A stretch of DNA of 64,000 nt. Source: Porphyridium purpureum. Lineage: Eukaryota. Positions 21,001-36,620 of this stretch are shown here, piece by piece (the stretch's first letter is position 1; each line of letters starts with the position of its first letter). The stretch covers positions 2,728,001-2,792,000 of the forward strand of contig VRMN01000001.1 of assembly GCA_008690995.1 (NCBI GenBank), given 5' to 3'. The notes beneath the pieces are model-generated. The model did no database searches, was not told the origin of the DNA, and was given only the letters and a program-made list of their open reading frames with translations. Position numbers and translations under genes: made by a program.

Positions 21001-21211
21001 GTCGCAGCTCAAGCCCGCCCTCCTTTTTCACCAAAGCAATTGACTGCAAGCCTGAGAAGGACCGATGCTTCGGCGAGGCATAGGCGCTGCTGCGCCGCCA
21101 GGGCGGGGAGCCGCGGTCCTCGCTGGTGCGCAATGGCAAGTTCTGGTTCTGCGCAGTCCAGCCCGCGCGCCTGTTGTGCAGGTCCGCCACCTCCACGTCC
21201 TCCAGCACCAT
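18065..21211 (-). CDS. Long coiled-coil protein of unknown function
   Basis: Long ORF rich in E/Q/L/R heptads with SP/TP-rich N-terminus; first ATG at 21211. Confidence 0.75.
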   Translation of the reverse strand: MVLEDVEVADLHNRRAGWTAQNQNLPLRTSEDRGSPPWRRSSAYASPKHRSFSGLQSIALVKKEGGLELRQDALASAVGGSQAAAGGAPTLRRSVPASPRMSTAASRGRKDAPVTPRDSVGARPKVLRTRRSTDHLPSPTGDENRPSCGVLVGRDQSERGEGIKFPYGHAHLQLHADPPSHKVGALRGLNDSLMSRMAMLQKEMEESIVLLEAEMQNKDAMLDSVRAELSRTRSAFEQTVSHLASERDAERLSRKQLEVESADLKQRLELFQAMIRRLEEEVASGAKQAVLWARQREQLEQSIESLHEEREAQKISFAETSQKQSGQIAALVHCNRGLIEKLRSAEQDAKTVLQLKKQMQADHVHYKTKAQQLLRMMYELGQAERAHRIRAEEDAQLARQEVSNLNAQCMWFERELRVHKGELHQCIAEQAAQSHEIVTLKADLNSAHEENARVEKVQVALDEESKKWRLKTEELDAQCTSLQTNLEGEEHSYGLQQKAFMRQIMRSERMKAELQKEHAEGMVSAERKRTELEEDLRCTIERLENELRSQSALDGSSAPLHKMQPASDHATAYGSSIVEDSATRRMVLAMLQQMNRIPTELATFGRSLTLEHDRLKADLCKVQEQHGRAQQLLQAHLSRGSDAEDAQVKKCNVVLRALDQKEAHLKQQLATFWVAYTAQISEHADKLVQECATSAGYLVEARESAKRLSELIAMSRGVKAASPAKRATAGAFSHVLREMEHGEYANGERDLSDRQSSKRLATQMRQSMQCMRAGIGSVHLQLEHSHVNVQRQRVELLQRLCEADERQTELETGRLELEAQIQVQERQLKASQLRCDDLFAQLRSLEQENRNLECKLQIQEGQTENSTAAVMNPSVGYVDEQLALRLNESLRDLQRLSDRVHETGPASLEEHPSSVLRSSTWSSNRRASDNRVVFDLQKNTSREFRAESDVKQDQTQAVGALLVPFDSDDEEDVHVYEQLLRSRHQSMDAVPGARTQRYQNAYTNTTKKGQFKLADLLRLLRRLLKPERPAGSGCAEGRREGINLSFYV

Positions 21212-21598
21212 TGCGAAGCGCGTCTGCTCTGTCCACAGCACCACGCCCGCCTTCCCTCTCTCTCTCTCTCTCTCCACCAGCGCAGGCGCGCGTTGTCGCG
21301 CGCTCTTTTCAAGTCTCGCAGCCGCCAGGTGTGTGTGTGTCCCACACATGTGTCTGTCCCGCCATGCGTCACATGCGACGCGACCGTTACGCTTCTGCAC
21401 GAGCTGCGGGACAACGGTCAAGTGTCGGTACAGCAATACTGTACACTATACCAACTGTACATCTCTCTCACTCTCATCCAAAAAGCCAAACTGTACTCAA
21501 CCGCGCTCGATCGTTCTTTACTGTACACAGCTGTACTCCATCCTGTATTCTTTTTGCTTTGATGATAGCGTCTTCGTGAAGCACGCGTATACCAAACG

Positions 21599-21856
21599 TG
21601 TACCAATAGTAACCTACTGGTGGCTAGCTGAAGCAAGAGGTCCACAACAAGACGACTTTACTCCTTAACACAACCTAGCTCTTACCTCAAAAGAAGACAG
21701 AGCGCCGACTCGTCGGCCGTCTCTCACACTCTAATGATATACTACTGTGGTTAACCATTACGGTCACCAACCAACGGAGAGTTGTCATCATTAAGCATTT
21801 GATGACTCCTCATCACGTCATCAGGCAGGCAGAGAGGGATGACAATATTCCACGCA
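21599..21856 (-). repeat. Probable 3' LTR of element A (ends uncertain)
   Basis: Follows the PPT and starts with TG; TATA-like and AGTAAA motifs on minus strand; no second copy available to confirm the ends. Confidence 0.5.
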
Positions 21857-21894
21857 CCCCCTCATCACTTCTGCGCTGGCTGCAAAGGAACGAA

Positions 21895-24800
21895 TCACAC
21901 TCGCTCGACAAGGTGCCAGCGGGTGTACGGATCATTGTCACACGACATTTTCTCATCATCATGGCTGTACGCATAGCCACGCATGCCAGCACCATCGTCG
22001 CAGTCGTCGGGCTGCATGAGCATCGCGAAGGCGTTGCCACGGTTTGCGGCGGAGCGAGCATGCGTCAGACGCTGGGCGATGCCAAGGGATAAGCTTGCAC
22101 CGTACAGGCCCCACGCGGCTGCATGGCCGCGAAACACGTCGGTGGCAATCGGCTTCGTCAAGCCGTCAGCGATGTTGTCGCGCGTAGCGACATAGACGAA
22201 CCTGACGAGTCCGTCCGCTGCTATCTCGTGCAACCATCTCAGAGAGATGCGCTGCATCTTTGGCGCATGCAGTAGCCGGTCACTGTGGCCGCGCTCCACC
22301 GCGCGCAAAGTCGACTCGTTGTCGCACCGCACAACGATCGGAGGCCAGCGCCTCAAAAGTTCTTCCGCCAGTGTCGCCACTGGGAACACGCTGCCTTGCG
22401 CTGCGTCGTGCAGCGCTACCAACTCAGCCTCGGTCGTCGAGGTGCTGACGCGCCGCTGGCGCCGACTGGTCCAATCTACAAGGTGTTGGCATCTGCCATT
22501 CGATATGAAGAGCACGGCGCCGCTCGTGGATGACGGTGCCGAAAAGTCGGCATCAGCCCACGCGTGCAACCGAACGTCGCGACTGCCTGTCGCGGGTATG
22601 TCGTATTGCAGACAGACGTCCGCATGCTTCTTCAGATACCCGACGATCTCGTCGAGCGCGCGATCCGCGCTTGGCCCCCACCGGTCGACATAACGCGCCA
22701 CATGCGCCGTGGCATAAGCGATGTCTGCTCGCGTGGTTCGGCTGAGCCACAGCAGTTGGCCAATGACTGTTCGCTTGTTCGTCGGGCACGCGCGCCCGCC
22801 GGGTCCATTGTCGTCGACCCGCTCGCTGAGTGGCGTGCTGCGCACGCGCAAGTTGTCCGCGGTGTGGCCGTTCGCCACATGGGTGGCGTACACCCCCGAA
22901 TCCAATATCCATCGGCCGCCGTCGCGATAGATATGCATGCCGAGATACTTGATAGGGCGCGTACGCGCCGAGTCTGCAATGTATTCGACCTTCTGGTCGA
23001 TTCTGAAAACGGTCTTCAGTTGTTTGACCGCCACTCGTACCGCATCCGCATTGCCGAAGAGTGCGCCATCGTCGACGTACATGCTCAGCGTGAGCATGCT
23101 GCCGTTCGCGTCGCGGCGCCAGTACTGGTTCTTGTCCGCGTTGGATTCTTGCCATCCAAGCCGCCGGACACGCTCGCGAGCGTCGTGGCTGAAGTCGCTG
23201 CCGCTCCTTTTCATTCCGTACAGAGCCTGCGGTAGCTCGACGACAGGCTCGCTACACGCGGCCATCTTCCTGTAGTCAGCTTCGCTGACTAGACCCTTCA
23301 CGACCGGGACCAGGTCGCGCAGATATCCGAATGTCGGACGGCCGCCCAATGGTGCACTGGGGTAGGCACACGTTACGTCGAAGAAGGCGCCGTCGGCGGA
23401 TGGTCCATGGAGCATGAGCACCATGCTCATCGAGGCGCGGATCGCCAGCAAACCTGGTGGGCGATCAAAAGGGTACGGTTCTTCGCGCGCGCGACGCCCA
23501 TCGGCGTCCAGCACGACGCATCCTTGCGCGACGATGCGGCACTTCGTCTTGTGGAAAGACGGAGGCATTTCTGAATTCTTCTTGTTGAAGAGGAGCTTCA
23601 ACTTAACAAATTGCGCGTTCGGAACGCGCGCCGCCACTGCCTTGTCCATCGTGCGGCGGAAAGGCAGAGCGCCAGTGCTGGTGAGCGCACGAAGCTCGGA
23701 TGCTAATGCATGGCGGCCGGCGGGCGTGGCCATCGCCACCGCTGTGGCCACAACTTCTGCCACCCCCAGACCTGCCGCTTCGTCCTCTGGTCCTCCTGTC
23801 GCCGCGCTTGTGTACGTTGCGTTGCTGCTACTCTCTGCTCGCGTCGCGTCGTTCCGCGTCGCGTCACTCGCTGCTGCTGCGTGCACTGGAAGCACACCCA
23901 GTTCCGCTGCGCGCGCGCGCAAGCCGGCTGGTTTGCGGCCGCGCATGAAGAATGCTGGCCTACCCGCGATGGCAAGCCAGTCCTCACCAAAACGGGCAAT
24001 GCCTTCGGATATGGCAATGTCCTCGGCCGGACTCCACGGCAGCTCAATGCGCCGATACTGTGCACGCGACGCGAGCTTTCCGTGCTCGTCTCGGTTGCAC
24101 TGGCAGTGCATTTGCCTGCATGCGCCGTCACCAGTGTGACGTCGGTTGGGCGCCGGACCCAAAATGCATTTCTCGCATTCGGTGCTCCCACCGACTATTT
24201 TCTTGCACTGTGTGCAGAATGCACGGTCCGGTGCATTGTCGCGTGCTCGCGACCATTGATCACCCGTCGCAATGGCCTCATCCGGAGGCCGCAGTGCCAA
24301 ACGTCGCAATGGCCACCTGTCGGGAAGTGGCTTCCATTCGCCGACCTTCCTGATCGCAGATGGCCGCAAGTCGGCAATGGGCAGGGCGAGCAGGTTTATC
24401 GGCTGCCGCCGGTCATTTGGCCTCGGTGCCGTGAACCCAACGACGATTGCAGGCAAGCCTTTCGGCTCAAATTTGCCGCGGCTCTCATCGTATATGAGAA
24501 TGCCGCTCCCGAATCCAGGGATGGGCTTGTGCCATGTCAGACCGAGCCGTTGCTCGAAGCTGGTCTGCTCCTGCTTTGCGCCGCGCCAGGCGAGGTTTCT
24601 GGCCAGGCAAAAGTAGGCGGCGGCGAACGGATACCACGCGGTCGGCAAACCAGACTGCATCAGCAGTGCTCGCACTGCTCCGTTCAAGTCTGCGTGCTTG
24701 CGTTCATGCGTCACGTGCGTGTTCGCCCGGTACGGTACACCAGTGACTTTCTTCACGCCCTTTTCCGCGATGAATCCGTCGAATTCGCCCATGAACTCGC

Positions 24801-26718
24801 GGCCCTCGTCACACCGCAACACTCGTGGCCAATCACCACGTCCGCGCTGCAGCTCCGTCAACCCGCGAATGCACTCAGCGGCGGACTTGTCCGCCAGCCC
24901 AATTGCTGAGAACCACCCAGTTGCTTCGTCGAGGTGAGTGAGCAGCCACCTGCTGCCCTCCACGGCTGCCAGTCCGGGATCCACAATGTCAATCGACACC
25001 ACGTCGTTGAACTCGCGCGCTCGTCCGCGCTCTTTGCCAACCGAGTCGTCTCGCCTCACAGCACGCGCGCGCCGCAGCTTTGCCGCGCTGCATATTCCGC
25101 ACGTGTCGCGCGACGGCATGTGCAGAACGCAATGGTCCTGCTCTACATGCTCAGCCTCGGCTGTGCCAAGACTGTGACCGCCGATGGTCATTTCGAAGCG
25201 GTTGGCTCGAAGCCAATCGAGACCGATCACGAGGTCATTGTGGCCATTGTACACGACCACGTCCTGCTGCTTCTCTGCTGAATCCAGCACCGCCAGATTC
25301 ACTGTCGCGCGCCCGCGAGACATGCACTGCGTGCCGTCTGCCAATCGAATGGTCAAGGCATTCGCGGTGCTATTTGTGCGCACTCGCACCATCGCGCATG
25401 CGCTCTCGCTCAGAAAGGTGTGCGTTGCGCCGGTATCGATGACTGCTTTCATCGCCCGGCCGTTCACCCAAGCATTCACCTTGAGCAACCCTTTGCCCGC
25501 ACTGGCGGTCATCAACTCGGCCCCGCCGAGATTGGCATCGCGATCATCGCGCCTATCTGCACAGTTGTGCGTCGCTGGCCCCCACACGGAGCACCGATGG
25601 CAGTAATAGCGCCCACGCTGATTACTCTTCTTGCCATCTTGTTGCGACTTCGGCGTCTGTCGCGGTCGTGGTCTACTGGCACCGCCTCGTTGCGGTGCGC
25701 CACGCTTCTGTCCGCGCCCACGCGCGTCGTTCTGGCCGCCACCACGGTTCCAACCGTGCGTGCTCGGCTCTCGCCAGCCGCCGTCTCGTCCGTCCGCGCG
25801 GCTCTGCGCGTACTGCTCTGCATGATTCGCACGCAGGTTCCGGTGCGGTCCAGCTGGTGACCATTGGTCATGCTGTTGCTGTTGATACTCGTTCGAGCGA
25901 TCCCGCTGGAAGTCGTTGTATCCTCGTTCGTGCACCCGTGCGCGGCTGCCGCTGGCGGTGCCCAAGTCCATTGGCACCGGACCATGCTGGTTATAGTTCA
26001 TCTGGGGGTGGTATGCAGGCTGCATGGCTGACGGGTACGTGCGTGCTGTGATGGGCTGCTGGTCTCGACCACGCTTAAATATGACTTTGTCGGCAACTAG
26101 AGCCAAACGCAAAGCGTCGTCATAGGTGGGAGGGAAGTGAAGCGCTACGTGAGTGGCAATAGAAGTGTCAAGAGATTCTGTAAAATAGTGAAGTTTATCT
26201 TTGTCTACCAAATTTGGTATACGCAGACAAACTTCACTAAATGCAGCTTCAAAATCTTGGACACTCATTGCACCCTGCTTCATCTTTTGCAGTTCATCCC
26301 GCACGTCATTTTCTGTTTCTTTTGGCTCGAAGCGCCGCTGAAGCGCGAGCAGAAACTCTTCTACCGAGGTGGGTCTCTGATCAGGTTGTAATGCCTGGTA
26401 CCAGAGTTGCGCCAATCCGAAGAGGTGAGTCGAAAGCGTCGACACTGCTTCCTCTTCCTCGGTTTCCGTCCAAAGACGGCCCTGCGACCGCCAATCCGAG
26501 CGCGCCGGGTTGTACACCCGCGAACGCGCTGCTGCCGTCCAGGTCATAATGGCCGCAGTGGATCGCTCGCCGCCATAGTACAGCATGGCCGCAGGGCGCA
26601 TGCAGCTCGGCAAAGCGCCACTTCCACCGGATCCATCGCGAAGCGCCCTCAGACGAACGTTCTCGCTCCGCAGCTCGGCGAGCTCACTCTGAACAATCGC
26701 CGTCCGGGTATTCAGTTC
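21895..26718 (-). CDS. Element A Gag-PR-INT-(Cys-rich/Myb)-RT-RNase H polyprotein, N-terminus removed
   Basis: PVPMDLG, VIDTGATHTF, HxxxHxPxxxxCxxC, D..D..E integrase, ALYGMK, MYVDD, WADADF, NIADGLTKP. Confidence 0.92.
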   Translation of the reverse strand, partial: ELNTRTAIVQSELAELRSENVRLRALRDGSGGSGALPSCMRPAAMLYYGGERSTAAIMTWTAAARSRVYNPARSDWRSQGRLWTETEEEEAVSTLSTHLFGLAQLWYQALQPDQRPTSVEEFLLALQRRFEPKETENDVRDELQKMKQGAMSVQDFEAAFSEVCLRIPNLVDKDKLHYFTESLDTSIATHVALHFPPTYDDALRLALVADKVIFKRGRDQQPITARTYPSAMQPAYHPQMNYNQHGPVPMDLGTASGSRARVHERGYNDFQRDRSNEYQQQQHDQWSPAGPHRNLRANHAEQYAQSRADGRDGGWREPSTHGWNRGGGQNDARGRGQKRGAPQRGGASRPRPRQTPKSQQDGKKSNQRGRYYCHRCSVWGPATHNCADRRDDRDANLGGAELMTASAGKGLLKVNAWVNGRAMKAVIDTGATHTFLSESACAMVRVRTNSTANALTIRLADGTQCMSRGRATVNLAVLDSAEKQQDVVVYNGHNDLVIGLDWLRANRFEMTIGGHSLGTAEAEHVEQDHCVLHMPSRDTCGICSAAKLRRARAVRRDDSVGKERGRAREFNDVVSIDIVDPGLAAVEGSRWLLTHLDEATGWFSAIGLADKSAAECIRGLTELQRGRGDWPRVLRCDEGREFMGEFDGFIAEKGVKKVTGVPYRANTHVTHERKHADLNGAVRALLMQSGLPTAWYPFAAAYFCLARNLAWRGAKQEQTSFEQRLGLTWHKPIPGFGSGILIYDESRGKFEPKGLPAIVVGFTAPRPNDRRQPINLLALPIADLRPSAIRKVGEWKPLPDRWPLRRLALRPPDEAIATGDQWSRARDNAPDRAFCTQCKKIVGGSTECEKCILGPAPNRRHTGDGACRQMHCQCNRDEHGKLASRAQYRRIELPWSPAEDIAISEGIARFGEDWLAIAGRPAFFMRGRKPAGLRARAAELGVLPVHAAAASDATRNDATRAESSSNATYTSAATGGPEDEAAGLGVAEVVATAVAMATPAGRHALASELRALTSTGALPFRRTMDKAVAARVPNAQFVKLKLLFNKKNSEMPPSFHKTKCRIVAQGCVVLDADGRRAREEPYPFDRPPGLLAIRASMSMVLMLHGPSADGAFFDVTCAYPSAPLGGRPTFGYLRDLVPVVKGLVSEADYRKMAACSEPVVELPQALYGMKRSGSDFSHDARERVRRLGWQESNADKNQYWRRDANGSMLTLSMYVDDGALFGNADAVRVAVKQLKTVFRIDQKVEYIADSARTRPIKYLGMHIYRDGGRWILDSGVYATHVANGHTADNLRVRSTPLSERVDDNGPGGRACPTNKRTVIGQLLWLSRTTRADIAYATAHVARYVDRWGPSADRALDEIVGYLKKHADVCLQYDIPATGSRDVRLHAWADADFSAPSSTSGAVLFISNGRCQHLVDWTSRRQRRVSTSTTEAELVALHDAAQGSVFPVATLAEELLRRWPPIVVRCDNESTLRAVERGHSDRLLHAPKMQRISLRWLHEIAADGLVRFVYVATRDNIADGLTKPIATDVFRGHAAAWGLYGASLSLGIAQRLTHARSAANRGNAFAMLMQPDDCDDGAGMRGYAYSHDDEKMSCDNDPYTRWHLVERV

Positions 26719-27017
26719 TGTTATCCGTTCGACCCCAGTCACCTAGAACGGTTCGGTTAATCCGAAACCGGTAAGCCGTTAAACCGGTAGACCGTTTAAC
26801 CGTTTCTAGAAGCTTCTAGAGGTTCCAGAACCTTCTAGACGCGCGCAGAAATGCCAATGATTTGCATTGTCATTTCTCTTGGCGCCTTGCTGTCCCTGGC
26901 GGAAGTAAGGGTATAAAAAGGCGACGCGCCTGCCCGGACTAGCCGGTCAGGTCTTGCTCGGAGACAGAAGAGGTAAGAAGAAGACGCAGAGAGTAAAAAG
27001 GCACAGCATTGGTAACA
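26719..27017 (+). repeat. 5' LTR of element B (299 bp)
   Basis: TGTTA...TAACA termini; direct repeat of 31888-32185; TATAAAA at 26912. Confidence 0.96.
26804..26840. promoter_or_regulatory. Tandem heat-shock-element-like arrays in the LTR
   Basis: TTCtaGAAgcTTCtaGAg and TTCcaGAAccTTCtaGAc, ~70 bp upstream of the TATA box. Confidence 0.7.
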
Positions 27018-27019
27018 TT

Positions 27020-27027
27020 TGGTATCA
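27020..27027 (+). other. Primer-binding site (tRNA-iMet-like)
   Basis: TGGTATCA 2 bp after the 5' LTR. Confidence 0.85.
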
Positions 27028-27584
27028 TCGCTGGTTACCTGGGGTTGCTCTAAGGTTCTCTTTGAGTTTCTCTGGGGTTGCCTGGGTGGGAGAGTCTGCG
27101 GGTAAGGGGGTTCGAGTAAGTCGATCCGGAGGGTGCGACGGGTGGAAGCGGGTCTCAGTCTTGGCTGTACGATAGGCCTAGGCCTTGACGGCGGACTCGC
27201 TCTCTGCCTTAGCACGTATTAGTAGGCAAGAGCCGTAACGGTCAGCCTTCACTAGGATTCATCCTAGTGTCGCACGACCACCTTTGCGAAGGTAGGCGCC
27301 GAACACCTCCATACAAGATCGCATCTATAATCCCCGCCCCAGTGCAAAGGCCCGGGCCGCTCCCCATCCAGCGCAACAGAGGAGGATTGCTGTGTGCTTT
27401 GTTGTGTGTGCGTGAGAGGGTTGCTGTGCGTGTGTGTGAGTGAGAGGACCGCTTCGTGTGTCGATTTGTGTTCGTGAGGGCGACCGAGCCCGTTCGTGGT
27501 GCGCGCAGCCGTTCGAGAGTGTGAGCAGCGGAGACTCGCTGTTTGTGTCGTTGTCGTCGTTTAGTGTGCTTGTTTCCAGAAAGC

Positions 27585-28391
27585 ATGGAGATTGATTCGG
27601 AGACGCTGGGACCACGTGGCCCGAAGGAGGCCCGTCTGATGAGGTTCGACGGGAAGCGTGACCTTCTCGTTGTGAAGACGTGGTTGTTCCAGGCGAGAAA
27701 GAAGATCTTGGGCCGGCTGTTGGAGAGCATCCACCCGGACGATTTGGAGAAACGTCTGCTTGCGGAGAGGCGTGCTGTGGACCTGGCATCAGACTACTTC
27801 GAGGGAGAGGCGCTTCATTGGTGGGTTCTAAACTGCGAACGCTACCCGCATGAGATCCCCACGACGTGGAATGATTTTGCTGCCCTCGTGAGTGCTCGGT
27901 TCACGCCGCAGGATTCGATCAGGCGTGCAAGGGACAAGTTGACGCGTCTTTCGCAGAAAGGCCCGGCCCATGCGTATGTGGCGGCTTTTCAGGACGCGGC
28001 ACTTGTGATTCCGGACTTGTCGGACGCAGAAATGATGGACCGCTTTGTGAGGGGTCTGAAGCCCGAGGTCCGCTTGGAAGTGTACAAGCGAGGAGTGAGT
28101 ACGTTCGCGGAGGCTGCGCAGGTGGCGGTGGTCGTGGACGACGCCATTCATGCGACCCGCGGCGTGCGTGATTCAAGTGTGAGGGCGCCATTTTTCGGTC
28201 GTGCAGCGCAGGAAGGACCTGTCCCGATGGAGCTGGGACATGTGCAGGGTCAGAGGCGTGTTCGTACCGAGCTCAAGTGCTGGAATTGTGGAAGGCCGGG
28301 ACACATCGCCAGGACGTGTCCCGAGGCAAGGAAGACTATCCAGCAGCTGGAGGGAGACTCGCTGGAGTCAAAAAACGAGGAGCTCGAGTAG
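27585..28391 (+). CDS. gag: Element B Gag
   Basis: Retrotransposon capsid-like region, PVPMELG and CWNCGRPGHIARTC zinc knuckle. Confidence 0.93.
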   Translation: MEIDSETLGPRGPKEARLMRFDGKRDLLVVKTWLFQARKKILGRLLESIHPDDLEKRLLAERRAVDLASDYFEGEALHWWVLNCERYPHEIPTTWNDFAALVSARFTPQDSIRRARDKLTRLSQKGPAHAYVAAFQDAALVIPDLSDAEMMDRFVRGLKPEVRLEVYKRGVSTFAEAAQVAVVVDDAIHATRGVRDSSVRAPFFGRAAQEGPVPMELGHVQGQRRVRTELKCWNCGRPGHIARTCPEARKTIQQLEGDSLESKNEELE

Positions 28392-31300
28392 AAAGGTTCC
28401 TCGGACAGTCAGAGGGAAAGGAGGCTCGCAGGCGTTACGAGACCTCTAGGGGCGGCAATGAAGACCGCTGTGGTGGCCTTGGTAAGCCAAGGTCTGGCTG
28501 TCCGACACCTTGTGGGCGAAACTCGAGCGCAAATCAGCCCGTGATCAAGGAACTTGGAGGGATGGGAGCTGCCATGCTTCTTCGAGTTCGAGGAAAAGTG
28601 CACAAGTCCGACGGAGAGGCCACGTTTTTGATTGACAGTGGCGCGACGGACAACTTCATGAGCGTGGACTTTGTGCTGAAATCCGACGGCCTGAAGCAGA
28701 AGGCGTCGTGGAAGAGAGATCATGTGACCCTAGCGGATGGGTCTGTATTGGAAACAGCCGGAGAAGTTTCCAATGTCAAGTTTGAACTGAGCGATGGGTA
28801 CTCAGGGGCCGCTAACTTTGCCATTTGCCGGATTGCGGGACAAGACGCAATCTTGGGCATGGAGTGGCTGAAGCGGGAGAACCCAGTGATTGATTGGCAG
28901 TCTGGCATGTTGGCCTACGGAGAGAAGAAGGCCTGGAGCATGACGCAGATGCTGGTGCCGCGGAAAGAGCTCCGTCGGCTGTTGAAGAGTCAGGAGGTAG
29001 AAGAGTGCTACCTCGGCGTGCTGAAAGGAAGGGAGGAGCCCTGTTCAGTGGAGCGCAAAGGAGATGACTCTGTGAAGAAGATGCTCAAAGATTTCGAAAG
29101 TCTGTTCGAGGAGCCGCGAGGGCTGCCTGAGAGCCGAACAGTGGAGCATGTGATTAGGCTGAAAGATGAGAAGCCTGTGAGAGTGGGCAGGGTCTACCGA
29201 CTGAGCCCTGCGGAGTTGAAAGTCCTCCGAGAGACTTTGGATGACTTGCTGGATAAGGGATTCGTCCAGCCGAGTCAGAGCCCGTTTGGAGCACCCGTGC
29301 TGTTCGTGAAGAAGAAAGACGGCAGCATGAGGATGTGCGTTGATTATCGGGCGTTGAACGACGCAACTGTGAAGGACCGGTATCCGTTGCCGAACATGGA
29401 TGAGTTGCTGGATCGACTGGGCGCAGCTCACTGTTTCTCAAAGTTGGATTTGGCATCGGGATACCACCAGTTGCGTGTTCGGAGAGAGGACGTGCCGAAG
29501 ACCGCGTTCCAGACCAGGTACGGACAGTTCGAGTTCCGTGTGATGCCGTTTGGTCTTTGCAACGCGCCGGCAACTTTTCAGAGGGCCATGAACGAGCTGT
29601 TTGCAGATCTGCTGGACAAGACCGTCATTGTCTACTTGGACGATATTTTGGTCTTTACCAAGGATAGGCAGTCGCACGGCGAGGTCCTGAAGGAAGTGTT
29701 GTCGCGCTTGCAAAAGGCAGGGTATCGTTTGAAGCGCAAGAAGTGCAGCTTTTTCGTTTCTGAAGTCGAATACCTGGGGAACATTGTCGGCAACGGTTGC
29801 GTGAAGATGGATCCACGGAAGGTGGAAGCTTTGAGAGATTGGCCAGTGCCAAAGACGGTGACGGAGTTGAGATCCTTTTTGGGAATGACAAACTGGTTTC
29901 GCAGGTTTGTCAAAGGATACTCTACCGTCGTGGCGCCGCTGACTTCGCTGTTGCAGAACGCAAAGTCGAAGAAGCAGCTGATCGAACTGGGAGATGAAGG
30001 CAAATCGGCCTTCAAGAAGATTGTCGGGATGTTGACGGAAGCGCCGGTGTTGGCCTTGCCAGACCCTGAAAAGCCATTTGAGGTGTACACGGACCGCTCC
30101 GAAGTCGCGGTGGGGGGATGGCTGGCACAGGAAGGCAGACCGGTCGCGTTTACGTCGAGGAAGCTGCTGGACCGAGAGACCAGGTACAGCAGCTATGAAG
30201 GTGAGCTCATGGCCGTCATTCACTGTCTGCGAGAGTTTCGACCTTATCTGTACGGGGCAAAGTTTGTGCTTCACACAGATCATGAGGCGTTGAAACATCT
30301 GATGACGCAGAAGGAGCTGAATGGCCGGCAAGCACGGTGGTTGGACTTTTTGGCCGAGTTTGATATCACAATCGACTATGTGAAGGGAAAGTCGAACGTG
30401 GTGGCCGATGCTTTGTCGAGAAAGCCAGAGTTGCATGCGCTAGAGTACCAAGTTCGGTGTGATGAATTTGGTGCGGGGTTCCAGGCATTCGTGGGTTCGT
30501 ACTCGAGTGACCCAGACTTTGGTGCTTTGATGGGGGATTTACCGACCCACCAAGGCTTTCGAACCGAAGCTGGGCTCTTGTACTTGAGGAATCGCGTTTG
30601 CGTGCCGAGGAAGTTCAGAGAGCGTGTCATGCAGCTCCACCACGATATCCCGACAGCAGGACACCGTGGAGCCGACACGACGTATGCATCTTTGATCACT
30701 CGCTTCTACTGGCCAAAGATGAAGCGAGACGTGAGCCGTTTTGTGAAGACTTGTCACGCGTGCCAAGTGACAAAGTCTGAGAATCGGTCGTTTGGAAAGC
30801 TGAAGCCCTTGTCGATCCCAGAAGGACCTTGGGTCGACATTTCGATGGACTTTGTGACGGAGCTGCCTCGGAGCGAAGGCAGCTGTGATGCAATCATGAC
30901 TGTGGTGGATCGCTATTCGAAGATGGCGCTGTTTATCCCGACGCGCAAGGACTTGACAGCAAAACGTTGTGCTGACTTGTTCGTGAAGCACGTCGTGAGC
31001 CGTTTCGGATACCCCAAGTCAATTGTATCGGACCGAGATCCGCTGTTTACGTCCACGTTTTGGCAGCAGTTGAGCAAGCGGGTGGGCATGAAGTTGGCTA
31101 TGTCTGCCGCCAACCACCCGCAGACTGATGGCCAAACTGAGCGAGTGAACCGGGTGATTCGGGAAATGCTCAAGTTAATGGCGACGAATAGTGGCTGGGT
31201 GCGAGACTTGCCGTTGTACGAGTTTGCGTACAACTCTGCACCAAGCAGTGCCACTGGATTCGCGCCGTTCAAAGTGGTATATGGAAGGGATCCTTGGTTT

Positions 31301-31768
31301 CCACCGAGCGAAGGGTGGAGGCCTGCGCGCGACGGACAGACAAAGGACATGGCGGAGCACTGGTTTCGCCTGTGCAAAGTCCATGAAGAAGTCCGCGACA
31401 ATTTGATCGAAGCCCAGGGGAGAATGCAGAAGTTCTTCGATCGACGCAAGGATGCCCGGGAGTTTCAAGTTGGTGATCAAGTGTTGATCACGGCGCCGCA
31501 ATTGCGGCCGAACAAGAGTGATTTGGCGGCACCAAAGTTTCTTGGTCCGGTGCCTGTCATTGAGAAGGTAAGCTCGCATGCTTACCGAGTGATTTTGCCC
31601 GAGGGTGTGGCTTGTCATGATGTTTTTCCGATCCAACATCTGAAGCCATACTATGGACGCGAAGACTACATGGCAGGGGAAAATGATGAAGAAGTACCCG
31701 ACGACCTGCCAGCGTCCGATTCTGAGCCAGACTTGTTGAAAATTATCGAAGAGTCTGACTCTGAATGA
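28370..31768 (+). CDS. pol: Element B Pol (PR-RT-RNase H-INT) in the -1 frame relative to gag
   Basis: LIDSGAT, YLDD, RNase H DALSR, HHCC and DDE integrase, GPY/F-like motif; no chromodomain seen. Confidence 0.95.
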   Translation, partial: KKRGARVERFLGQSEGKEARRRYETSRGGNEDRCGGLGKPRSGCPTPCGRNSSANQPVIKELGGMGAAMLLRVRGKVHKSDGEATFLIDSGATDNFMSVDFVLKSDGLKQKASWKRDHVTLADGSVLETAGEVSNVKFELSDGYSGAANFAICRIAGQDAILGMEWLKRENPVIDWQSGMLAYGEKKAWSMTQMLVPRKELRRLLKSQEVEECYLGVLKGREEPCSVERKGDDSVKKMLKDFESLFEEPRGLPESRTVEHVIRLKDEKPVRVGRVYRLSPAELKVLRETLDDLLDKGFVQPSQSPFGAPVLFVKKKDGSMRMCVDYRALNDATVKDRYPLPNMDELLDRLGAAHCFSKLDLASGYHQLRVRREDVPKTAFQTRYGQFEFRVMPFGLCNAPATFQRAMNELFADLLDKTVIVYLDDILVFTKDRQSHGEVLKEVLSRLQKAGYRLKRKKCSFFVSEVEYLGNIVGNGCVKMDPRKVEALRDWPVPKTVTELRSFLGMTNWFRRFVKGYSTVVAPLTSLLQNAKSKKQLIELGDEGKSAFKKIVGMLTEAPVLALPDPEKPFEVYTDRSEVAVGGWLAQEGRPVAFTSRKLLDRETRYSSYEGELMAVIHCLREFRPYLYGAKFVLHTDHEALKHLMTQKELNGRQARWLDFLAEFDITIDYVKGKSNVVADALSRKPELHALEYQVRCDEFGAGFQAFVGSYSSDPDFGALMGDLPTHQGFRTEAGLLYLRNRVCVPRKFRERVMQLHHDIPTAGHRGADTTYASLITRFYWPKMKRDVSRFVKTCHACQVTKSENRSFGKLKPLSIPEGPWVDISMDFVTELPRSEGSCDAIMTVVDRYSKMALFIPTRKDLTAKRCADLFVKHVVSRFGYPKSIVSDRDPLFTSTFWQQLSKRVGMKLAMSAANHPQTDGQTERVNRVIREMLKLMATNSGWVRDLPLYEFAYNSAPSSATGFAPFKVVYGRDPWFPPSEGWRPARDGQTKDMAEHWFRLCKVHEEVRDNLIEAQGRMQKFFDRRKDAREFQVGDQVLITAPQLRPNKSDLAAPKFLGPVPVIEKVSSHAYRVILPEGVACHDVFPIQHLKPYYGREDYMAGENDEEVPDDLPASDSEPDLLKIIEESDSE

Positions 31769-31873
31769 CTTGGGAATTGTGAGAAGTTTGCTAGGCAGAG
31801 GTTTTCTCCCGGAGCGCGGGTTCCTCGAGCCAAGAATGCAACTTAGTTTGAAGTCTCGCCGAGACGTCGAGCC

Positions 31874-31887
31874 AAGAGGGGGGGAGA
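31874..31887 (+). other. Polypurine tract of element B
   Basis: AAGAGGGGGGGAGA immediately before the 3' LTR. Confidence 0.92.
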
Positions 31888-32185
31888 TGTTATCCGTTCG
31901 ACCCCAGTCACCTAGAACGGTTCGGTTAATCCGAAACCGGTAAGCCGTTAAACCGGTAGACCGTTTAACCGTTTCTAGAAGCTTCTAGAGGTTCCAGAAC
32001 CTTCTAGACGCGCGCAGAAATGCCAATGATTTGCATTGTCATTTCTCTTGGCGCCTTGCTGTCCCTGGCGGAAGTAAGGGTATAAAAAGGCGACGCGCCT
32101 GCCCGGACTAGCCGGTCAGGTCTTGCTCGGAGACAGAAGAGGTAAGAAAGAAGACGCAGAGAATAAAGGCACAGCATTGGTAACA
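31888..32185 (+). repeat. 3' LTR of element B (298 bp)
   Basis: Direct repeat of 26719-27017, with differences seen only near the poly(A)-signal region. Confidence 0.96.
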
Positions 32186-35100
32186 TTGGAACTCGTGCGG
32201 AAACTAGGATATCCTTCTATTCGCGCGGTGAGGCAAGGAATGATTAGCGGTGCGATCAAGAACTGCGATGTGACAGTACGCGACATCGATAGAAGCATCG
32301 CGCTCTGGGGACCTGCACTTCCTGCCTTGAAAGGACGTACGACGGGTCACAAAACACCTGCCGTGCCCGAAGCTCCTCTGACGATGCCGTTCAGGGACGC
32401 ACAAATGTGTTGCGATATTATGGCCGTGGACCGAAACCTGTTCTTGATTTCAGTAGTCAAACCATTTCAGTTTTTCATGGCCACGCCAATTAGGAACAAA
32501 TCAGCGGAGGACATTCACGCAGCCCTGACGAAGCAGCTGAAGACGTTGCGTGGGCACCAAGTGATCGTGAGAATGATACACTCGGATCGAGAGAGTGGCG
32601 TAAAGGCCGTGGTTGACTGGATGCATGAGAACGGGATATTGCCAGAGTTGACCGGGGCAGGGGAAGCGGTTCAAGCAGCCGAGCGCGGCATTCGACTGGT
32701 GAAAGAACGTGCGCGCGCGGTGATTAGCGGGTTGCCGTTTGTGTTGCCTCGCCTGCTCGTGCCTGCCCTTGTCGAATATTGCGTTCAGCGCATAAATGGC
32801 CTGCAGAGTAGTGTGTCCAGTGGGGCTCTTTCGGGTAGGTCCCCGAAAGAGGAGATGACGGGTCGTGTATTGGACGCGAAAAGGGACCTTGCCCTCGGGT
32901 TCGGGGACTACGTGCAAGTGCACGCCGCGCATGTGGACAATAGCATGGCAGAGCGCACAGTGGGGTGCATCGCACTACATCCCACTGAAAACTTGTCCGG
33001 GGCGTGGAACTTCTTGAATCTGAATACAGTAGCAATGACTGTGCGGCAAAGCTGGACTAGTTTGCCGACGCCTGATTTTGTACTTGATAGGCTCAACGAG
33101 CTCGCGGCGACAAGAGGGCAAGTGGAAGTCGGCATCGAGGGAAATGCGAGCGTCAGCCTGGACGAGCAACAGCAAGGGCTCCCCGCGGAGGGCGCAGGCG
33201 AAGAGGGAGAGTTGGAAGAACAGTCGGAAAACGAACTCCCAGACATGCTGGAGGGCGATTGGGAAGAGTCAATGGAAGATGGTGGGATACGGGATCCAGA
33301 GCATGCGATGAAGTCGAGCAAAGCATCTGTGACACCGGATGGTGAGGTGGCAGTTGGAGTGGCTGAGCAGAGGGACGTTCCGAGCGTCACGGACCTTCCA
33401 GCCGTGATGGAGCGGCCTGATGCAGAACACGAGACGCGAGAAGGTGGAACTCTAGAACCTAAGAATGCTTTGCAACAGAGTCCGTCCATGGATACGTTCG
33501 TGAGTGCGGACCGTCGCGAACAAAGAAATATGACGGTAGTCTCAAATGCTCAGAATGCTTTGGAGGATCAAATTGGCTGCACGCGTGAGCTCAATGAGCC
33601 TCGAGGCGAACGACCGGGGGAATTGCGCAGTGTTGCGGGTCGGACGTCCGATAAGGAAGGCATCGATGAGCCGAGAGCGCAGATAGCTGGGAAACGAACA
33701 CAAGATAACACAGGTGACGATTGGGAGCGCAACCTGCGCGCGCGCATTATGCCAGCCCCTATGCTGCACGAAACGGTTGGTGCTGGGCACGCAGAACAGC
33801 GGAGCGCGCAGGCCCCAAAAGCAAGTTTAAGCGCTCCGCAAGGCGCGGCGTTGTTTAAGTCTGAGGGGCCAACGAGCGCAGCGAGTCGGAAAGCGTCGCG
33901 CCACGGCCCCAGGCGGAGCCTGCGGCCGGGGGTACAGTTGGAGGTACAGTGCCCTACTACTGATCCCGGGACTGCCGACGCTGTGCTAAGGGGCGCTGTA
34001 ATCGATGCTCGGCTTGCTGAACTCGAGACTCGAGAGCGTCAGCTGCTGAGGGCCATAAGACTGGCCTCTATTGAGAAGCGATTGAAGGAAATCGATGCCA
34101 GGGAAGAAGAGCTGAGGCTGGAGAAACGGCTGAAGCGAAAATCTCGGGAGGCGGGGAACGATGAACACGCCGAGGACGATGCAGAAGCGACGTCGACAAA
34201 ACGCGCCAGGGCATTCGTGGTGAAGGCGGTCCGCGCGGGCATGGCGCTGAACTTATCTGTGAAGAAGGCGATCAAGAAATTCGGGTCCAAAGCAATGGAA
34301 GCAATAGTGCGCGAGGTGGCCCAGTTGGATCAGCGCTACGGGTACGGCGTTGTGGAGCCTGTCGATACCAAGACCATGACGCCACAAGAGAGAAAGTCCA
34401 TTATACCGTCACATATGTTTGTGAAGGAGAAACTGGACTCGACTGGGGCTGTGGAAAAGGTGAAGGCGCGTATTGTGGCAGGTGGCAACAAACAGGACGC
34501 CGTCCTGTACCCCGACAGATCGGCGCCCACCGCGGCCACAGATAGCGTTCTGATCTTGGCTGCCATTGCGGCGAGAGAAGGCAGATCCGTTGGGAAAATG
34601 GATTTCCCCGGCGCGTTCCTTCACGCGCCGATGCCCGCCGACGTGCCGGACACTCATATGAGAATTGATAGCTTCCTGGCTGACGTGCTAGTCCGACTGG
34701 ATCAAAAGTACGAACAGTACTTGCGAAAGGATGGGTCACTCGTTGTCAAGCTGACGAAAGCGTTGTATGGCACTTTGATCGCGGCACGACAATGGTACAT
34801 GAAAGTTGCGGGGCTGTTCGAGGATCTGGGATTCGTGGTAAATCCTTATGATGCATGTGTGTTTAATCGAGAGTCCGTGTCGATGATTCTCCACGTGGAC
34901 GATGTCATGCTATTCGGCAAGTCGGAGGCTGCGGTGAAAGGTGTCATGAAAGAAGTTAGAGACAAGTACCCCGGACTGACGTGCGAAACCGGAGTCAAGA
35001 TCGATTATCTCGGAATGCTGTTTGACTTTCGAAAAAAGGGATTCGTGACCATCAGTATGCAGGGGTATGTTGATGCGCTCATTGAGGAGAGCGGCACGAG

Positions 35101-35845
35101 AGGCACCGCCAAAACGCCAGCAGGCGCTTCTCTGTACGAAGTGCGCAGCGATGCAGTTGGTCTCGGTGCAGAGCGAGCCAGAAGGTACCACACCCTAGTC
35201 TGCAAACTTCTGTATTTGGCCAAGCGCATACGACCAGACTTGCTCACAACGGTGGCAATGTTGGTGACGAGGACGGATAAGCCGAGCGTAGATGATGAAA
35301 TGAAGCTGAGCCGCGCTCTCAAGTACCTCAACGGTACCCGCGGCCTGCATCTGACTTTGGGCGCGAGTGATGAGCTTGCAGTAATAGGAGCGGTGGACGC
35401 TTCATTCGCGGTGCATGCTGACTGCAAAAGTGTCAGCGGCACAGCAGTGACACTCGGGCGCGGGACCATATTTGCGAAAAGCGCAAAGCAGCGGCTGGTG
35501 ACCAGAAGTTCGACAGAAGCGGAACTAGTCGGAGCCAGCGAAGCGCTCGGACAAGTGTTGTGGACAGCAAACTTTCTCAAGTCGCAGGGGTACAAGGTCA
35601 AGGAAAGCGTGATTTTACAAGACAATCTGTCCACGATTGCCATGTTGCAGCGCGGAAGGTCGAATTCTGCGAGGACCAGACACGTGAATATCCGTTATTA
35701 TTTCGTGCACGACTACCTGAGGCGCGGCGAACTGAGAATAGAGCACTGTCCGTCCCAGGACCTTGTGGCAGATATACTCACGAAGCCGATCCAGGGTGAT
35801 CGTTTTGTGAGGTTAAGAGACAAGTTGTTGGGTGTCACGGAGTGA
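32186..35845 (+). CDS. Element C INT-RT-RNase H polyprotein (gag and protease absent)
   Basis: HSDRESG...AERGIR integrase, KARIVAGG, KALYG, HVDD, VDASF, HVNIRYYFV, ADILTKP; frame uninterrupted. Confidence 0.93.
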   Translation: MELVRKLGYPSIRAVRQGMISGAIKNCDVTVRDIDRSIALWGPALPALKGRTTGHKTPAVPEAPLTMPFRDAQMCCDIMAVDRNLFLISVVKPFQFFMATPIRNKSAEDIHAALTKQLKTLRGHQVIVRMIHSDRESGVKAVVDWMHENGILPELTGAGEAVQAAERGIRLVKERARAVISGLPFVLPRLLVPALVEYCVQRINGLQSSVSSGALSGRSPKEEMTGRVLDAKRDLALGFGDYVQVHAAHVDNSMAERTVGCIALHPTENLSGAWNFLNLNTVAMTVRQSWTSLPTPDFVLDRLNELAATRGQVEVGIEGNASVSLDEQQQGLPAEGAGEEGELEEQSENELPDMLEGDWEESMEDGGIRDPEHAMKSSKASVTPDGEVAVGVAEQRDVPSVTDLPAVMERPDAEHETREGGTLEPKNALQQSPSMDTFVSADRREQRNMTVVSNAQNALEDQIGCTRELNEPRGERPGELRSVAGRTSDKEGIDEPRAQIAGKRTQDNTGDDWERNLRARIMPAPMLHETVGAGHAEQRSAQAPKASLSAPQGAALFKSEGPTSAASRKASRHGPRRSLRPGVQLEVQCPTTDPGTADAVLRGAVIDARLAELETRERQLLRAIRLASIEKRLKEIDAREEELRLEKRLKRKSREAGNDEHAEDDAEATSTKRARAFVVKAVRAGMALNLSVKKAIKKFGSKAMEAIVREVAQLDQRYGYGVVEPVDTKTMTPQERKSIIPSHMFVKEKLDSTGAVEKVKARIVAGGNKQDAVLYPDRSAPTAATDSVLILAAIAAREGRSVGKMDFPGAFLHAPMPADVPDTHMRIDSFLADVLVRLDQKYEQYLRKDGSLVVKLTKALYGTLIAARQWYMKVAGLFEDLGFVVNPYDACVFNRESVSMILHVDDVMLFGKSEAAVKGVMKEVRDKYPGLTCETGVKIDYLGMLFDFRKKGFVTISMQGYVDALIEESGTRGTAKTPAGASLYEVRSDAVGLGAERARRYHTLVCKLLYLAKRIRPDLLTTVAMLVTRTDKPSVDDEMKLSRALKYLNGTRGLHLTLGASDELAVIGAVDASFAVHADCKSVSGTAVTLGRGTIFAKSAKQRLVTRSSTEAELVGASEALGQVLWTANFLKSQGYKVKESVILQDNLSTIAMLQRGRSNSARTRHVNIRYYFVHDYLRRGELRIEHCPSQDLVADILTKPIQGDRFVRLRDKLLGVTE

Positions 35846-35906
35846 CGGAAGGATCGAATGGCGTGTCGCTGCGCACAGCCATGCTCGTGCAATGAGCGAG
35901 GGAGTG

Positions 35907-36203
35907 TGTTGTGGGTTTTAGGGTTTGCCGACATGTTGTAGCACCGCAGAACATTCTAGATGCTGGTGCTGATGCACGCGTCCTGCGGCGGTAGGCGCTC
36001 CTGTGCCCGAGCAGGGAATTTGGTAGTGACGAGATTGCGGCTTTGCGGGTATAAAAGCGTGCTCTGGCGAGCGACCCGGCGGCGGCGTAATGGAGAAGAA
36101 GGGCTACGGATTTAGGGAGTGAAAAGCGTAACTTTGCACTGACGAGTATAAATTGTTTGTTTTTTCTTAGACGAACATCTCAGTAGTGACAGAAACCATA
36201 ACA
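35907..36203 (+). repeat. 3' LTR of element C (~297 bp)
   Basis: Inverted termini TGTTGTGG...CCATAACA; TATAAAA near 36050; follows the PPT. Confidence 0.8.
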
Positions 36204-36620
36204 GGGTGACCGCGATATGTTCTACGACGAAGTGGTTCCTCTGGTACAGAATGCATGGCGCTCAGCGCGGTTAACTGTACTTGAGCGTTTTCGGGCCAAC
36301 AACCACTGTACTTTGGCGCTCGCCAGGTTCCATCGTTTGCGCTTCATCTCAAAGTTGAGCTGAACGGCACATGTCGACCCGGCTCAACGCGTCGTGGGCT
36401 GTCGTGGTGGCTGGCTGGCTGGCACGTCGGTTGGCTGGCTGGCGTGCGAGAACGCAGACACGCAGAAAGGCAGCAACAAGCGCGATACTGAGGTCGCTTC
36501 GTGTGCGATTGAGACGCTGTGTCAAGAAGAGGCGACGGCGTAGCTGCTGGTTGGTGGCCGCGTACACACACACAAAGCCGGACGGCGCGCGCACCTACGG
36601 GCGGCGCTCCCAGCGCGAGC

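What the first reader, a model, noticed from the sequence alone, without database searches (positions are those of the whole stretch)
21895..26718. Chimeric-looking LTR retrotransposon: gypsy-type Gag and protease fused in frame to copia-type INT-RT-RNase H
Seen: one uninterrupted frame of ~1600 codons. The Gag (WY...FL.AL..RF...L..MKQG..SV.DF...F; PVPMDLG) and protease (A.IDTGATHTF.S...IRLADG...D.VIGLDWL) resemble those of the neighbouring gypsy element (PVPMELG; LIDSGAT.NF.S...VTLADG...DAILGMEWL). The rest has copia order and signatures (INT before RT; ALYG, YVDD, ADAD, ADGLTKP). Known: the two superfamilies normally differ in both domain order and protease signature. Inference: an inter-superfamily recombinant or an undescribed lineage. 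The intact frame suggests recent activity.
Basis: partly seen in the sequence, partly recalled or inferred. Interest (0 to 1): 0.85.

Follow-up and report, generated by a model that had tools for sequence, protein, structure and literature searches.

The report
Gypsy-capsid, copia-enzyme hybrid retrotransposon lineage
This is a front-truncated copy of a multi-copy jumping gene of the red alga Porphyridium whose shell protein and protease group with the gypsy superfamily while its inserting and copying enzymes group with copia; several divergent families share the build, so it likely comes from an old module swap between two superfamilies usually treated as separate.

Summary
Confirmed. One 1607-codon frame (26718→21895, minus strand) encodes Gag–protease–integrase–RT–RNase H. 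It is 100% identical to a named Porphyridium purpureum protein. The protease–integrase junction is no misassembly: 13 of 15 listed family members on 12 scaffolds carry it, and single contigs from two further studies span it. The protease groups with gypsy (99/99; grouping with sister copia proteases rejected, p=0.006), and the Gag profile matches gypsy (99%), not copia (≤9%). Integrase and RT–RNase H are copia (integrase with gypsy rejected, p=8e-6). At least four divergent Porphyridium families (30–47% identical) and two unnamed metagenome clusters share the build, while the nearest pol relatives keep copia-type proteases, so the swap is old. The neighbouring gypsy has the closest Gag of those tested, but at 25% identity it is not the direct parent. 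One capture or two is unresolved. This copy is dead: the gypsy cuts off 75 codons and the 5′ LTR. The family looks recently active and under purifying selection. Ten paper searches found no description. This scan noted the same hybrid type in three other windows on other DNA (unchecked notes).

The parts
21555..21856 (-). 3' LTR of the hybrid element, 302 bp, TG...CA
   Evidence: ends from loose ends at 21555 (X8) and 21855 (X2), and the joint 26718->21557 with 474 letters between in X1 and X8
21857..21872 (-). polypurine-tract-like stretch directly before the 3' LTR
   Evidence: sequence; function inferred
21895..26718 (-). single Gag-PR-INT-RT-RH frame, 1607 codons plus stop; first 75 codons of the family protein missing
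22084..22566 (-). RNase H, copia type (ADAD, TEAEL, CDN, ADGLTKP)
22729..23721 (-). reverse transcriptase, copia type (ALYG, YVDD at 23079)
   Evidence: Pfam RVT_2; trees
23930..24230 (-). Cys-rich and weakly Myb-like stretch in the INT-RT linker (approximate ends)
   Evidence: Pfam Myb E 0.017, E 0.036 in P0023; alignment; function unknown
24349..25134 (-). integrase, copia type: compact zinc finger, D577-D637-E672, SH3-like tail
   Evidence: Pfam rve; tree and AU test
25135..25205 (-). gypsy/copia seam between the protease's ILG-type motif and the integrase zinc finger (26 residues here, 16-59 in relatives)
25174..25506 (-). aspartic protease, gypsy/retroviral ILG type (DTG at 25437)
25561..25602 (-). 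degenerate zinc knuckle C-x2-C-x7-H-x-C (canonical CCHC in sister families P0023, P0041, P0058)
26074..26631 (-). two-lobed capsid domain, gypsy-type by sequence
26186..26239 (-). 54-nt A/T-rich hairpin inside the capsid coding sequence, z -6.9
   Evidence: function untested
26719..32185 (+). neighbouring gypsy element (LTRs 26719-27017 and 31888-32185; gag and pol in different frames) that truncates the hybrid; no target-site duplication
32186..35845 (+). second, unrelated copia element (copia B), starting mid-pol right after the gypsy; 25% identical to the hybrid in RT-RH

Best explanation
It is a 5'-truncated copy of a multi-copy LTR retrotransposon family whose Gag and protease group with Ty3/gypsy and whose integrase, RT and RNase H group with Ty1/copia, likely because an ancestral copia element long ago had its gag-protease block replaced by that of a gypsy related to one still living in Porphyridium. 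Shown: domain order, split ancestry, many copies, and an LTR-leader-gag-pol-LTR layout of about 5.9 kb. Inferred working cycle: one transcript gives one polyprotein; the gypsy-type capsid packages the RNA; the gypsy-type protease cuts out the copia enzymes; copia RT/RNase H copy the RNA; the copia integrase inserts it. Inferred reason the swap survived: capsid and protease are co-adapted, and so are INT-RT-RH with the LTR ends, so the protease/integrase boundary is the seam where both modules stay whole. The likeliest route (inferred, untested) is a gypsy inserted inside a copia, followed by deletion or template switching; such nesting is seen in this window.
For: Protease: tree puts 8 of 8 hybrid proteases with 24 gypsy ones (99/99) apart from 35 copia ones; AU rejects hybrids plus sister copia, p=0.0059. 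Profile-profile: hybrid-gypsy 97.5%, hybrid-sister copia 30-47%, sister-canonical copia 97.9%. A profile of gypsy proteases only scores the window protein 51.8 bits; the copia profiles give under 5 and 5.8. Gag: hybrid-gypsy 99.3%, hybrid-copia at most 8.9%. For 5 of 5 hybrid Gags the neighbouring gypsy Gag is the best of 16 gypsy Gags; they group 93/94, unstarred. Integrase: inside copia, gypsy apart 100/99, AU p=7.8e-6. RT-RH: inside a divergent copia clade. Among the 150 nearest pol relatives, 6 have a gypsy-type protease, 78 a copia-type one (some were in the training sets) and 66 none detectable. Reality: 13 of 15 listed cluster members, on 12 scaffolds, carry the junction; single contigs in runs X2 (23103-26718) and X8 (23987-26718), from different studies, span it. 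Other families: P0003/P0019, P0023, P0041, P0058, P0184 (Porphyridium); P0056/P0177 (ENA) and P0178 (JGI), unnamed. Selection: 23 of 35 listed differences in the frame are synonymous, pN/pS 0.17.
Against: Direction and number of events are not settled. The 61-row tree nests all hybrids in one clade (98/97) with copia-protease sisters outside. The 32-row mixture-model tree puts hybrids in a basal grade needing 2 changes; one clade is neither rejected nor shown (p=0.50). 13 of the 17 rows in that clade have no protease in their record. The predicted capsid fold does not tell the superfamilies apart (PEG10 Z 13.7, dArc1 12.3, Drosophila Copia 12.2). The link to the neighbouring gypsy's Gag is unstarred and rests on 14 gypsy Gags, and the protease tree does not single out that gypsy. 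No GyDB/REXdb/Repbase references were available. Paired LTRs, PBS and target-site duplications of full copies were not seen directly. The pN/pS count uses 35 sites from a list cut to 40 of 104 rows. RNA coverage of the frame is low (0-5x in a 20% sample of X22).
Confidence: 0.86

Rival explanations
1. Retained ancestral state: these elements branch near the base of copia and keep a gypsy-like Gag-protease from the common ancestor of the superfamilies; no swap took place.
For: In the mixture-model tree the hybrids form a basal grade of the divergent copia clade (86/90, 91/93). The capsid fold is shared by both superfamilies.
Against: Canonical copia and the hybrids' nearest sisters share one protease type (97.9%), so it would have had to arise twice. 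Hybrid proteases fall among gypsy ones rather than beside them. Hybrid Gags are closest to a gypsy of the same genome (36% for P0183).
Confidence: 0.07
2. A one-off local recombinant with the neighbouring gypsy, or a misassembly at about 25150.
For: The copy abuts a gypsy, and that gypsy has no target-site duplication, so the cluster is rearranged or mis-joined somewhere. Most copies come from one assembly.
Against: The junction is in 13 listed copies on 12 scaffolds, in contigs of two other studies and in families only 30-47% identical. Gag is 25% identical to the neighbour's, with no DNA match better than E 0.08.
Confidence: 0.01
3. Convergence or a host source: a copia protease drifted to an ILG motif, or was replaced by a host Ddi1-like protease, and the Gag likeness is only Pfam cross-reactivity.
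For: Among solved structures the best protease-family match is DDI1 (E 0.002). PF03732 can weakly hit a copia Gag (P0087, E 5e-4).
Against: Gag and protease both point to gypsy over their whole length, are adjacent as in gypsy with the P-x-P-M-(D/E)-L-G motif and a zinc knuckle between them, and no gypsy protease stood out in that PDB search to compete with DDI1. Ddi1 was not included in the tree.
Confidence: 0.04

Closest known systems
Ty1/copia (Pseudoviridae); nearest relatives are unnamed metagenome and MMETSP proteins P0028, P0030, P0031, P0045, P0057
   Same: INT-RT-RH order, RVT_2-type RT, copia RNase H, compact integrase zinc finger, TG...CA LTR, single frame
   Different: Those relatives have LLS-type proteases and an unrelated Gag; this element has an ILG-type protease and a Ty3-type Gag
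Ty3/gypsy (Metaviridae); nearest tested Gag is the neighbouring Porphyridium gypsy
   Same: Capsid sequence type, P-x-P-M-(D/E)-L-G motif, zinc knuckle, ILG-type protease
   Different: RT, RNase H, integrase and their order are copia; no H2C2 or Tf2-type SH3 integrase hits
Gmr1 clade (PMC2774666, section 12 and supplement 3)
   Same: ILG protease followed directly by integrase: the only such case among 76 marker combinations in that table
   Different: Gmr1 is listed as Ty3/gypsy with a GPY/F module, i.e. a gypsy with a moved integrase; here integrase, RT and RNase H are copia by descent
PyRE10G of Porphyra yezoensis (Peddigari et al. 2008, J Mol Evol; title seen in the reference list of PMC5445492, paper not read) and red-algal GalEa copia (PMC3587641, passages)
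   Same: A reported cross-superfamily mix in a red-algal copia element
   Different: By its title the gypsy-like part there is the integrase; here it is Gag and protease. GalEa proteases are scored LLS in PMC2774666 supplement 3; GalEa sequences were not in my trees

Membership tests
Ty1/copia (Pseudoviridae) | Integrase between protease and RT | tested here: met
   Pfam order
Ty1/copia (Pseudoviridae) | RT-RNase H of copia descent | tested here: met
   RVT_2 hit and no RVT_1; the 150 best relatives are copia-type pols (on subsets); trees (no gypsy RT in them)
Ty1/copia (Pseudoviridae) | Integrase of copia descent | tested here: met
   inside copia, gypsy apart 100/99; AU p=7.8e-6
Ty1/copia (Pseudoviridae) | LLS-type protease (Pfam Pol_BBD) | tested here: not met
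   ILG motif, no Pol_BBD at E up to 1 against 20 of 20 hand-picked canonical copia
Ty1/copia (Pseudoviridae) | Copia-type Gag (Retrotran_gag_2/3) | tested here: not met
   no such hit; profile match to copia Gags at most 8.9%
Ty3/gypsy (Metaviridae) | Gypsy-type Gag and ILG protease | tested here: met
Ty3/gypsy (Metaviridae) | Gypsy RT-RH followed by integrase | tested here: not met
Ty3/gypsy (Metaviridae) | Capsid fold closer to Ty3/Arc than to Copia | tested here: inconclusive
   Foldseek ranks dArc1 first (E 9e-5), Ty3 and Copia tied near 1e-2; VIA Z 13.7/12.3/12.2
Gmr1 clade | Gypsy RT and integrase with integrase moved upstream | tested here: not met
   RT and integrase are copia; no Gmr1 sequence was in the trees
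GalEa clade of copia | RT-RH inside GalEa; LLS protease | tested here: inconclusive
   protease is ILG, unlike GalEa's LLS score; no GalEa reference sequence available for the tree
Autonomous LTR retrotransposon | Paired LTRs, PBS, PPT and target-site duplication | tested here: inconclusive
   3' LTR and PPT-like tract seen; LTR-to-gag link seen in contigs X1 and X8; PBS, 5' LTR and TSD not seen because this copy is truncated and no genome was held

The most novel reading that the evidence does not exclude
Capsid-protease blocks are exchangeable between Metaviridae and Pseudoviridae and have been swapped more than once: this copia lineage took gypsy Gag-protease from host-resident gypsies at least twice (the P0184 family keeps a Gag 36% identical to the neighbouring gypsy and, it seems, a separate gag frame), and such hybrids form an overlooked third build of LTR retrotransposon spread over red algae and other microbial eukaryotes.
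Probability: 0.4. Interest if true: 0.82.

Novelty: new variant of a known kind. Interest (0 to 1): 0.7.

Why it matters
LTR retrotransposons are classified by RT and domain order, on the assumption that Gag and protease follow. A published marker table finds the LLS/ILG protease split to separate copia from all others (PMC2774666). Here a successful, recently multiplying lineage breaks that rule: a gypsy-type shell and protease serve copia enzymes. It shows where the polyprotein can be cut and re-joined across the deepest split of the group, it means RT-only annotation mislabels such elements (the public records are named plain 'Copia protein' or 'TNT 1-94 polyprotein'), and it offers a natural, near-intact test case, in a culturable microalga, of what a capsid and protease need to recognise in their cargo.

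Tried and rejected
No whole genome was held, so full copies with paired LTRs and TSDs could not be extracted. A profile search with alignment A1 returned only 4 proteins and missed known relatives; a Gag-protease search with P0184 returned 1; neither says anything about absence. The metagenome-contig scan gave 3 loci, none a close relative (24-27% identity). Viral-contig scans gave 0 and 2 gypsy loci. The ESM Atlas gave Retrotrans_gag clusters for Gag (0.93) and unnamed or copia-integrase clusters for PR-INT: leads only. PDB sequence searches were weak: dArc1 E 0.93 for Gag; DDI1 E 0.002 for the protease, with a spurious fimbrial-subunit top hit. Structure searches confirmed a capsid but did not separate the superfamilies. 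The bacterial promoter scan of the LTR is not meaningful for a eukaryote. A fold of the gypsy's gag/pol overlap was unremarkable (z -1.3). Amino-acid composition of P0021 and P0177 (GARP/FYMINK about 1.1 against 1.4-2.2 in Porphyridium hybrids) hints at other hosts, but the window's own gypsy pol gives 1.27, so it is weak. The two ends of the neighbouring gypsy were not checked in reads, so rearrangement versus assembly join there stays open. Ten paper searches found no description of a gypsy Gag-protease on a copia pol; the library lacks most subscription journals and Repbase Reports, where such elements could be listed. PMC8321522 and PMC2836005 (passages) held nothing relevant.

Full report
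What is there. The minus-strand frame 26718-21895 is open for 1607 codons. Pfam gives, in order, Retrotrans_gag/Ty3_capsid, gag-asp_proteas, rve and RVT_2, and all catalytic residues are in place, including integrase D577-D637-E672. Downstream lie a purine tract and a 302-bp TG...CA LTR, 21856-21555. The frame is 100% identical over 1607 residues to P0007, a named Porphyridium purpureum protein. Upstream it is cut at 26718 by a plus-strand gypsy (LTRs 26719-27017 and 31888-32185), whose other flank is an unrelated copia starting mid-pol. There is no target-site duplication around the gypsy, so the cluster is a recombinant between two gypsy copies or an assembly join; I could not tell which.

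Is the junction real? Yes. The protein's 90% cluster has 16 members; of the 15 listed, 13 carry the protease-integrase junction, on 12 scaffolds, at 96-100% identity; the other 2 are Gag fragments. Whole copies are 1682 aa, so this copy lacks 75 codons. Of 4 runs laid, two from different studies have one contig across the junction (X2 23103-26718; X8 23987-26718); X1 has a break there between variant contigs; X22 (RNA) covers the frame at only 0-5x. X1 and X8 join the LTR through 474 letters to 26718, which gives a full element of about 5.9 kb. The genome paper for the named records (PMC6811547; passages and supplement rows read) reports a Nanopore-Illumina assembly, a recent LTR expansion and 545 LTR/Copia repeats, with no mention of hybrids in the passages I saw.

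How wide is the lineage? A search of 1.84 billion representatives with the INT-RT-RH part alone returned further elements with the same front end. In P. purpureum these are P0003/P0019 (47%), P0023 (40%, 4 members), P0041, P0058 and P0040/P0184 (30%). Unnamed ones are P0056/P0177 (ENA) and P0094/P0178 (JGI), whose records show a gypsy-type protease joined to this integrase; their hosts are unknown. Scoring all 150 hits, 6 have a gypsy-type protease, 78 a copia-type one and 66 none detectable (P0056 fell below that threshold but carries the motif and groups with the hybrids). P0183 is a 272-aa Gag ending after its zinc knuckle, while P0184 continues into pol without the knuckle; this suggests a separate gag frame, as in the neighbouring gypsy, but I had no DNA to check it.

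Domain by domain. Gypsy references were the window's gypsy, a Mucor element, two viral-collection loci and gypsy-bearing contigs among 71 loci from prokaryotic assemblies; copia references were 15 near sisters and 20 canonical elements that I picked from the hits by their LLS motif. Protease: hybrids match gypsy at 97.5% and sisters at 30-47%, while sisters match canonical copia at 97.9%. In a 67-row tree (4 gypsy rows left out as near-duplicates) all 8 hybrids fall with 24 gypsy proteases (99/99), and hybrids plus sisters as one clade is rejected (p=0.0059). Gag: hybrids match gypsy at 99.3% and copia at most 8.9%. For all 5 hybrid Gags the best of 16 gypsy Gags is the neighbour's (25-36%), and they group at 93/94, short of a star, in a 19-row tree (2 weak rows left out). 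Integrase: inside copia, with gypsy apart at 100/99 and hybrids plus gypsy rejected (p=7.8e-6). RT-RH: hybrids lie in a divergent copia clade (100/100) whose other members have copia-type proteases. The AlphaFold model of Gag (pLDDT 87.6, pTM 0.54) is a two-lobed retroelement capsid, best matched by dArc1 and PEG10 but with Drosophila Copia tied, so structure neither adds to nor detracts from the gypsy assignment.

What is unresolved. The 61-row LG+G4 tree holds all hybrids in one 17-row clade (98/97), sister to LLS-protease elements (97/91), which means one gain. A 32-row mixture-model tree roots the clade among the hybrids and needs two changes. One clade is neither rejected nor shown (p=0.50). 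The Gag tree likewise pairs P0183 with the neighbouring gypsy (86/80) without rejecting hybrid monophyly (p=0.14). So there was one old capture, or two.

How it most likely works. It works like any LTR retrotransposon (established knowledge): a polyprotein is cut by its own protease inside a Gag particle, RT and RNase H make DNA, and integrase inserts it. The inferred special point is that a gypsy-type capsid and protease do this for copia enzymes. The seam lies in the 16-59 residues between the protease's ILG-type motif and the integrase zinc finger, which keeps both modules whole. Nesting of a gypsy inside a copia, as seen here, followed by deletion or template switching is a plausible route; this is untested. 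This copy has no start codon, leader or 5' LTR and is dead; the family is probably still mobile or was so recently.

Against what is known. Llorens et al. 2009 (PMC2774666; section 12 parts 1-2 of 3, supplement 3 rows and part 6 of 7 read) state that LLS marks nearly all copia proteases and ILG the rest. In their 76 marker combinations, ILG with integrase after protease occurs only in Gmr1, a gypsy. Red-algal GalEa elements, including two from Porphyridium, are reported (PMC3587641, PMC5445492; passages), and GalEa is scored LLS. A Porphyra copia with a gypsy-like integrase is in print (title only seen). Ten searches found no gypsy Gag-protease on a copia pol; subscription journals, Repbase and bioRxiv supplements were out of reach. 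By RT it would be filed as Pseudoviridae, but it fails the copia Gag and protease features, so I call it a copia-derived hybrid. This scan's notes describe the same build in three windows of other genomes, one of the clubroot parasite; a sequence look-up found no look-alike, and I could not test whether they share an origin with this lineage.

Verdict. Observation confirmed, interpretation supported with corrections. New variant of a known kind; interest 0.70; confidence in the old-swap explanation 0.86.

Noticed in passing
window 26186-26239: A 54-nt A/T-rich hairpin with a palindromic centre inside the capsid coding sequence; z -6.9 on the sense RNA, the only strong short-range inverted repeat in 21400-36400. 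Possible packaging or dimerisation signal.
   Followed up: partly
window 26719-32185: Near-intact gypsy with LTRs identical over the first 261 nt but no target-site duplication; its left flank is the hybrid's Gag and its right flank another copia's pol, so ectopic recombination or an assembly join. Its LTR is heavily covered by RNA reads in X22 (200-500x).
   Followed up: partly
window 32186-36200: Copia B: a divergent copia (long branch, 25% identical to the hybrid in RT-RH) lacking its gag-protease part, with a probable 3' LTR at about 35907-36201.
   Followed up: partly
proteins P0038, P0039: RT-RH falls in the hybrid clade but the integrase groups with canonical copia: possibly a further module swap at the INT/RT boundary.
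   Followed up: partly
window 21484: 30 RNA reads of run X22 leave the window sequence here and continue into sequence not found in the window: another allele or an empty site upstream of the coiled-coil gene at 18065-21230.
   Followed up: partly
window ~23930-24230: The INT-RT linker has a Cys-rich cluster and a weak Myb-like motif, partly shared with other families and with copia-protease sisters; a possible targeting domain.
   Followed up: no
proteins P0025, P0179: Porphyridium records made of 2-4 tandem INT-RT-RH units in one predicted protein: tandem arrays or assembly artefacts.
   Followed up: no
loci L006-L076: 71 loci in prokaryotic assemblies encode gypsy RT relatives, most on short contigs, probably eukaryotic contamination; L045 lies in a 1.44-Mb Wolbachia chromosome record.
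   Followed up: no
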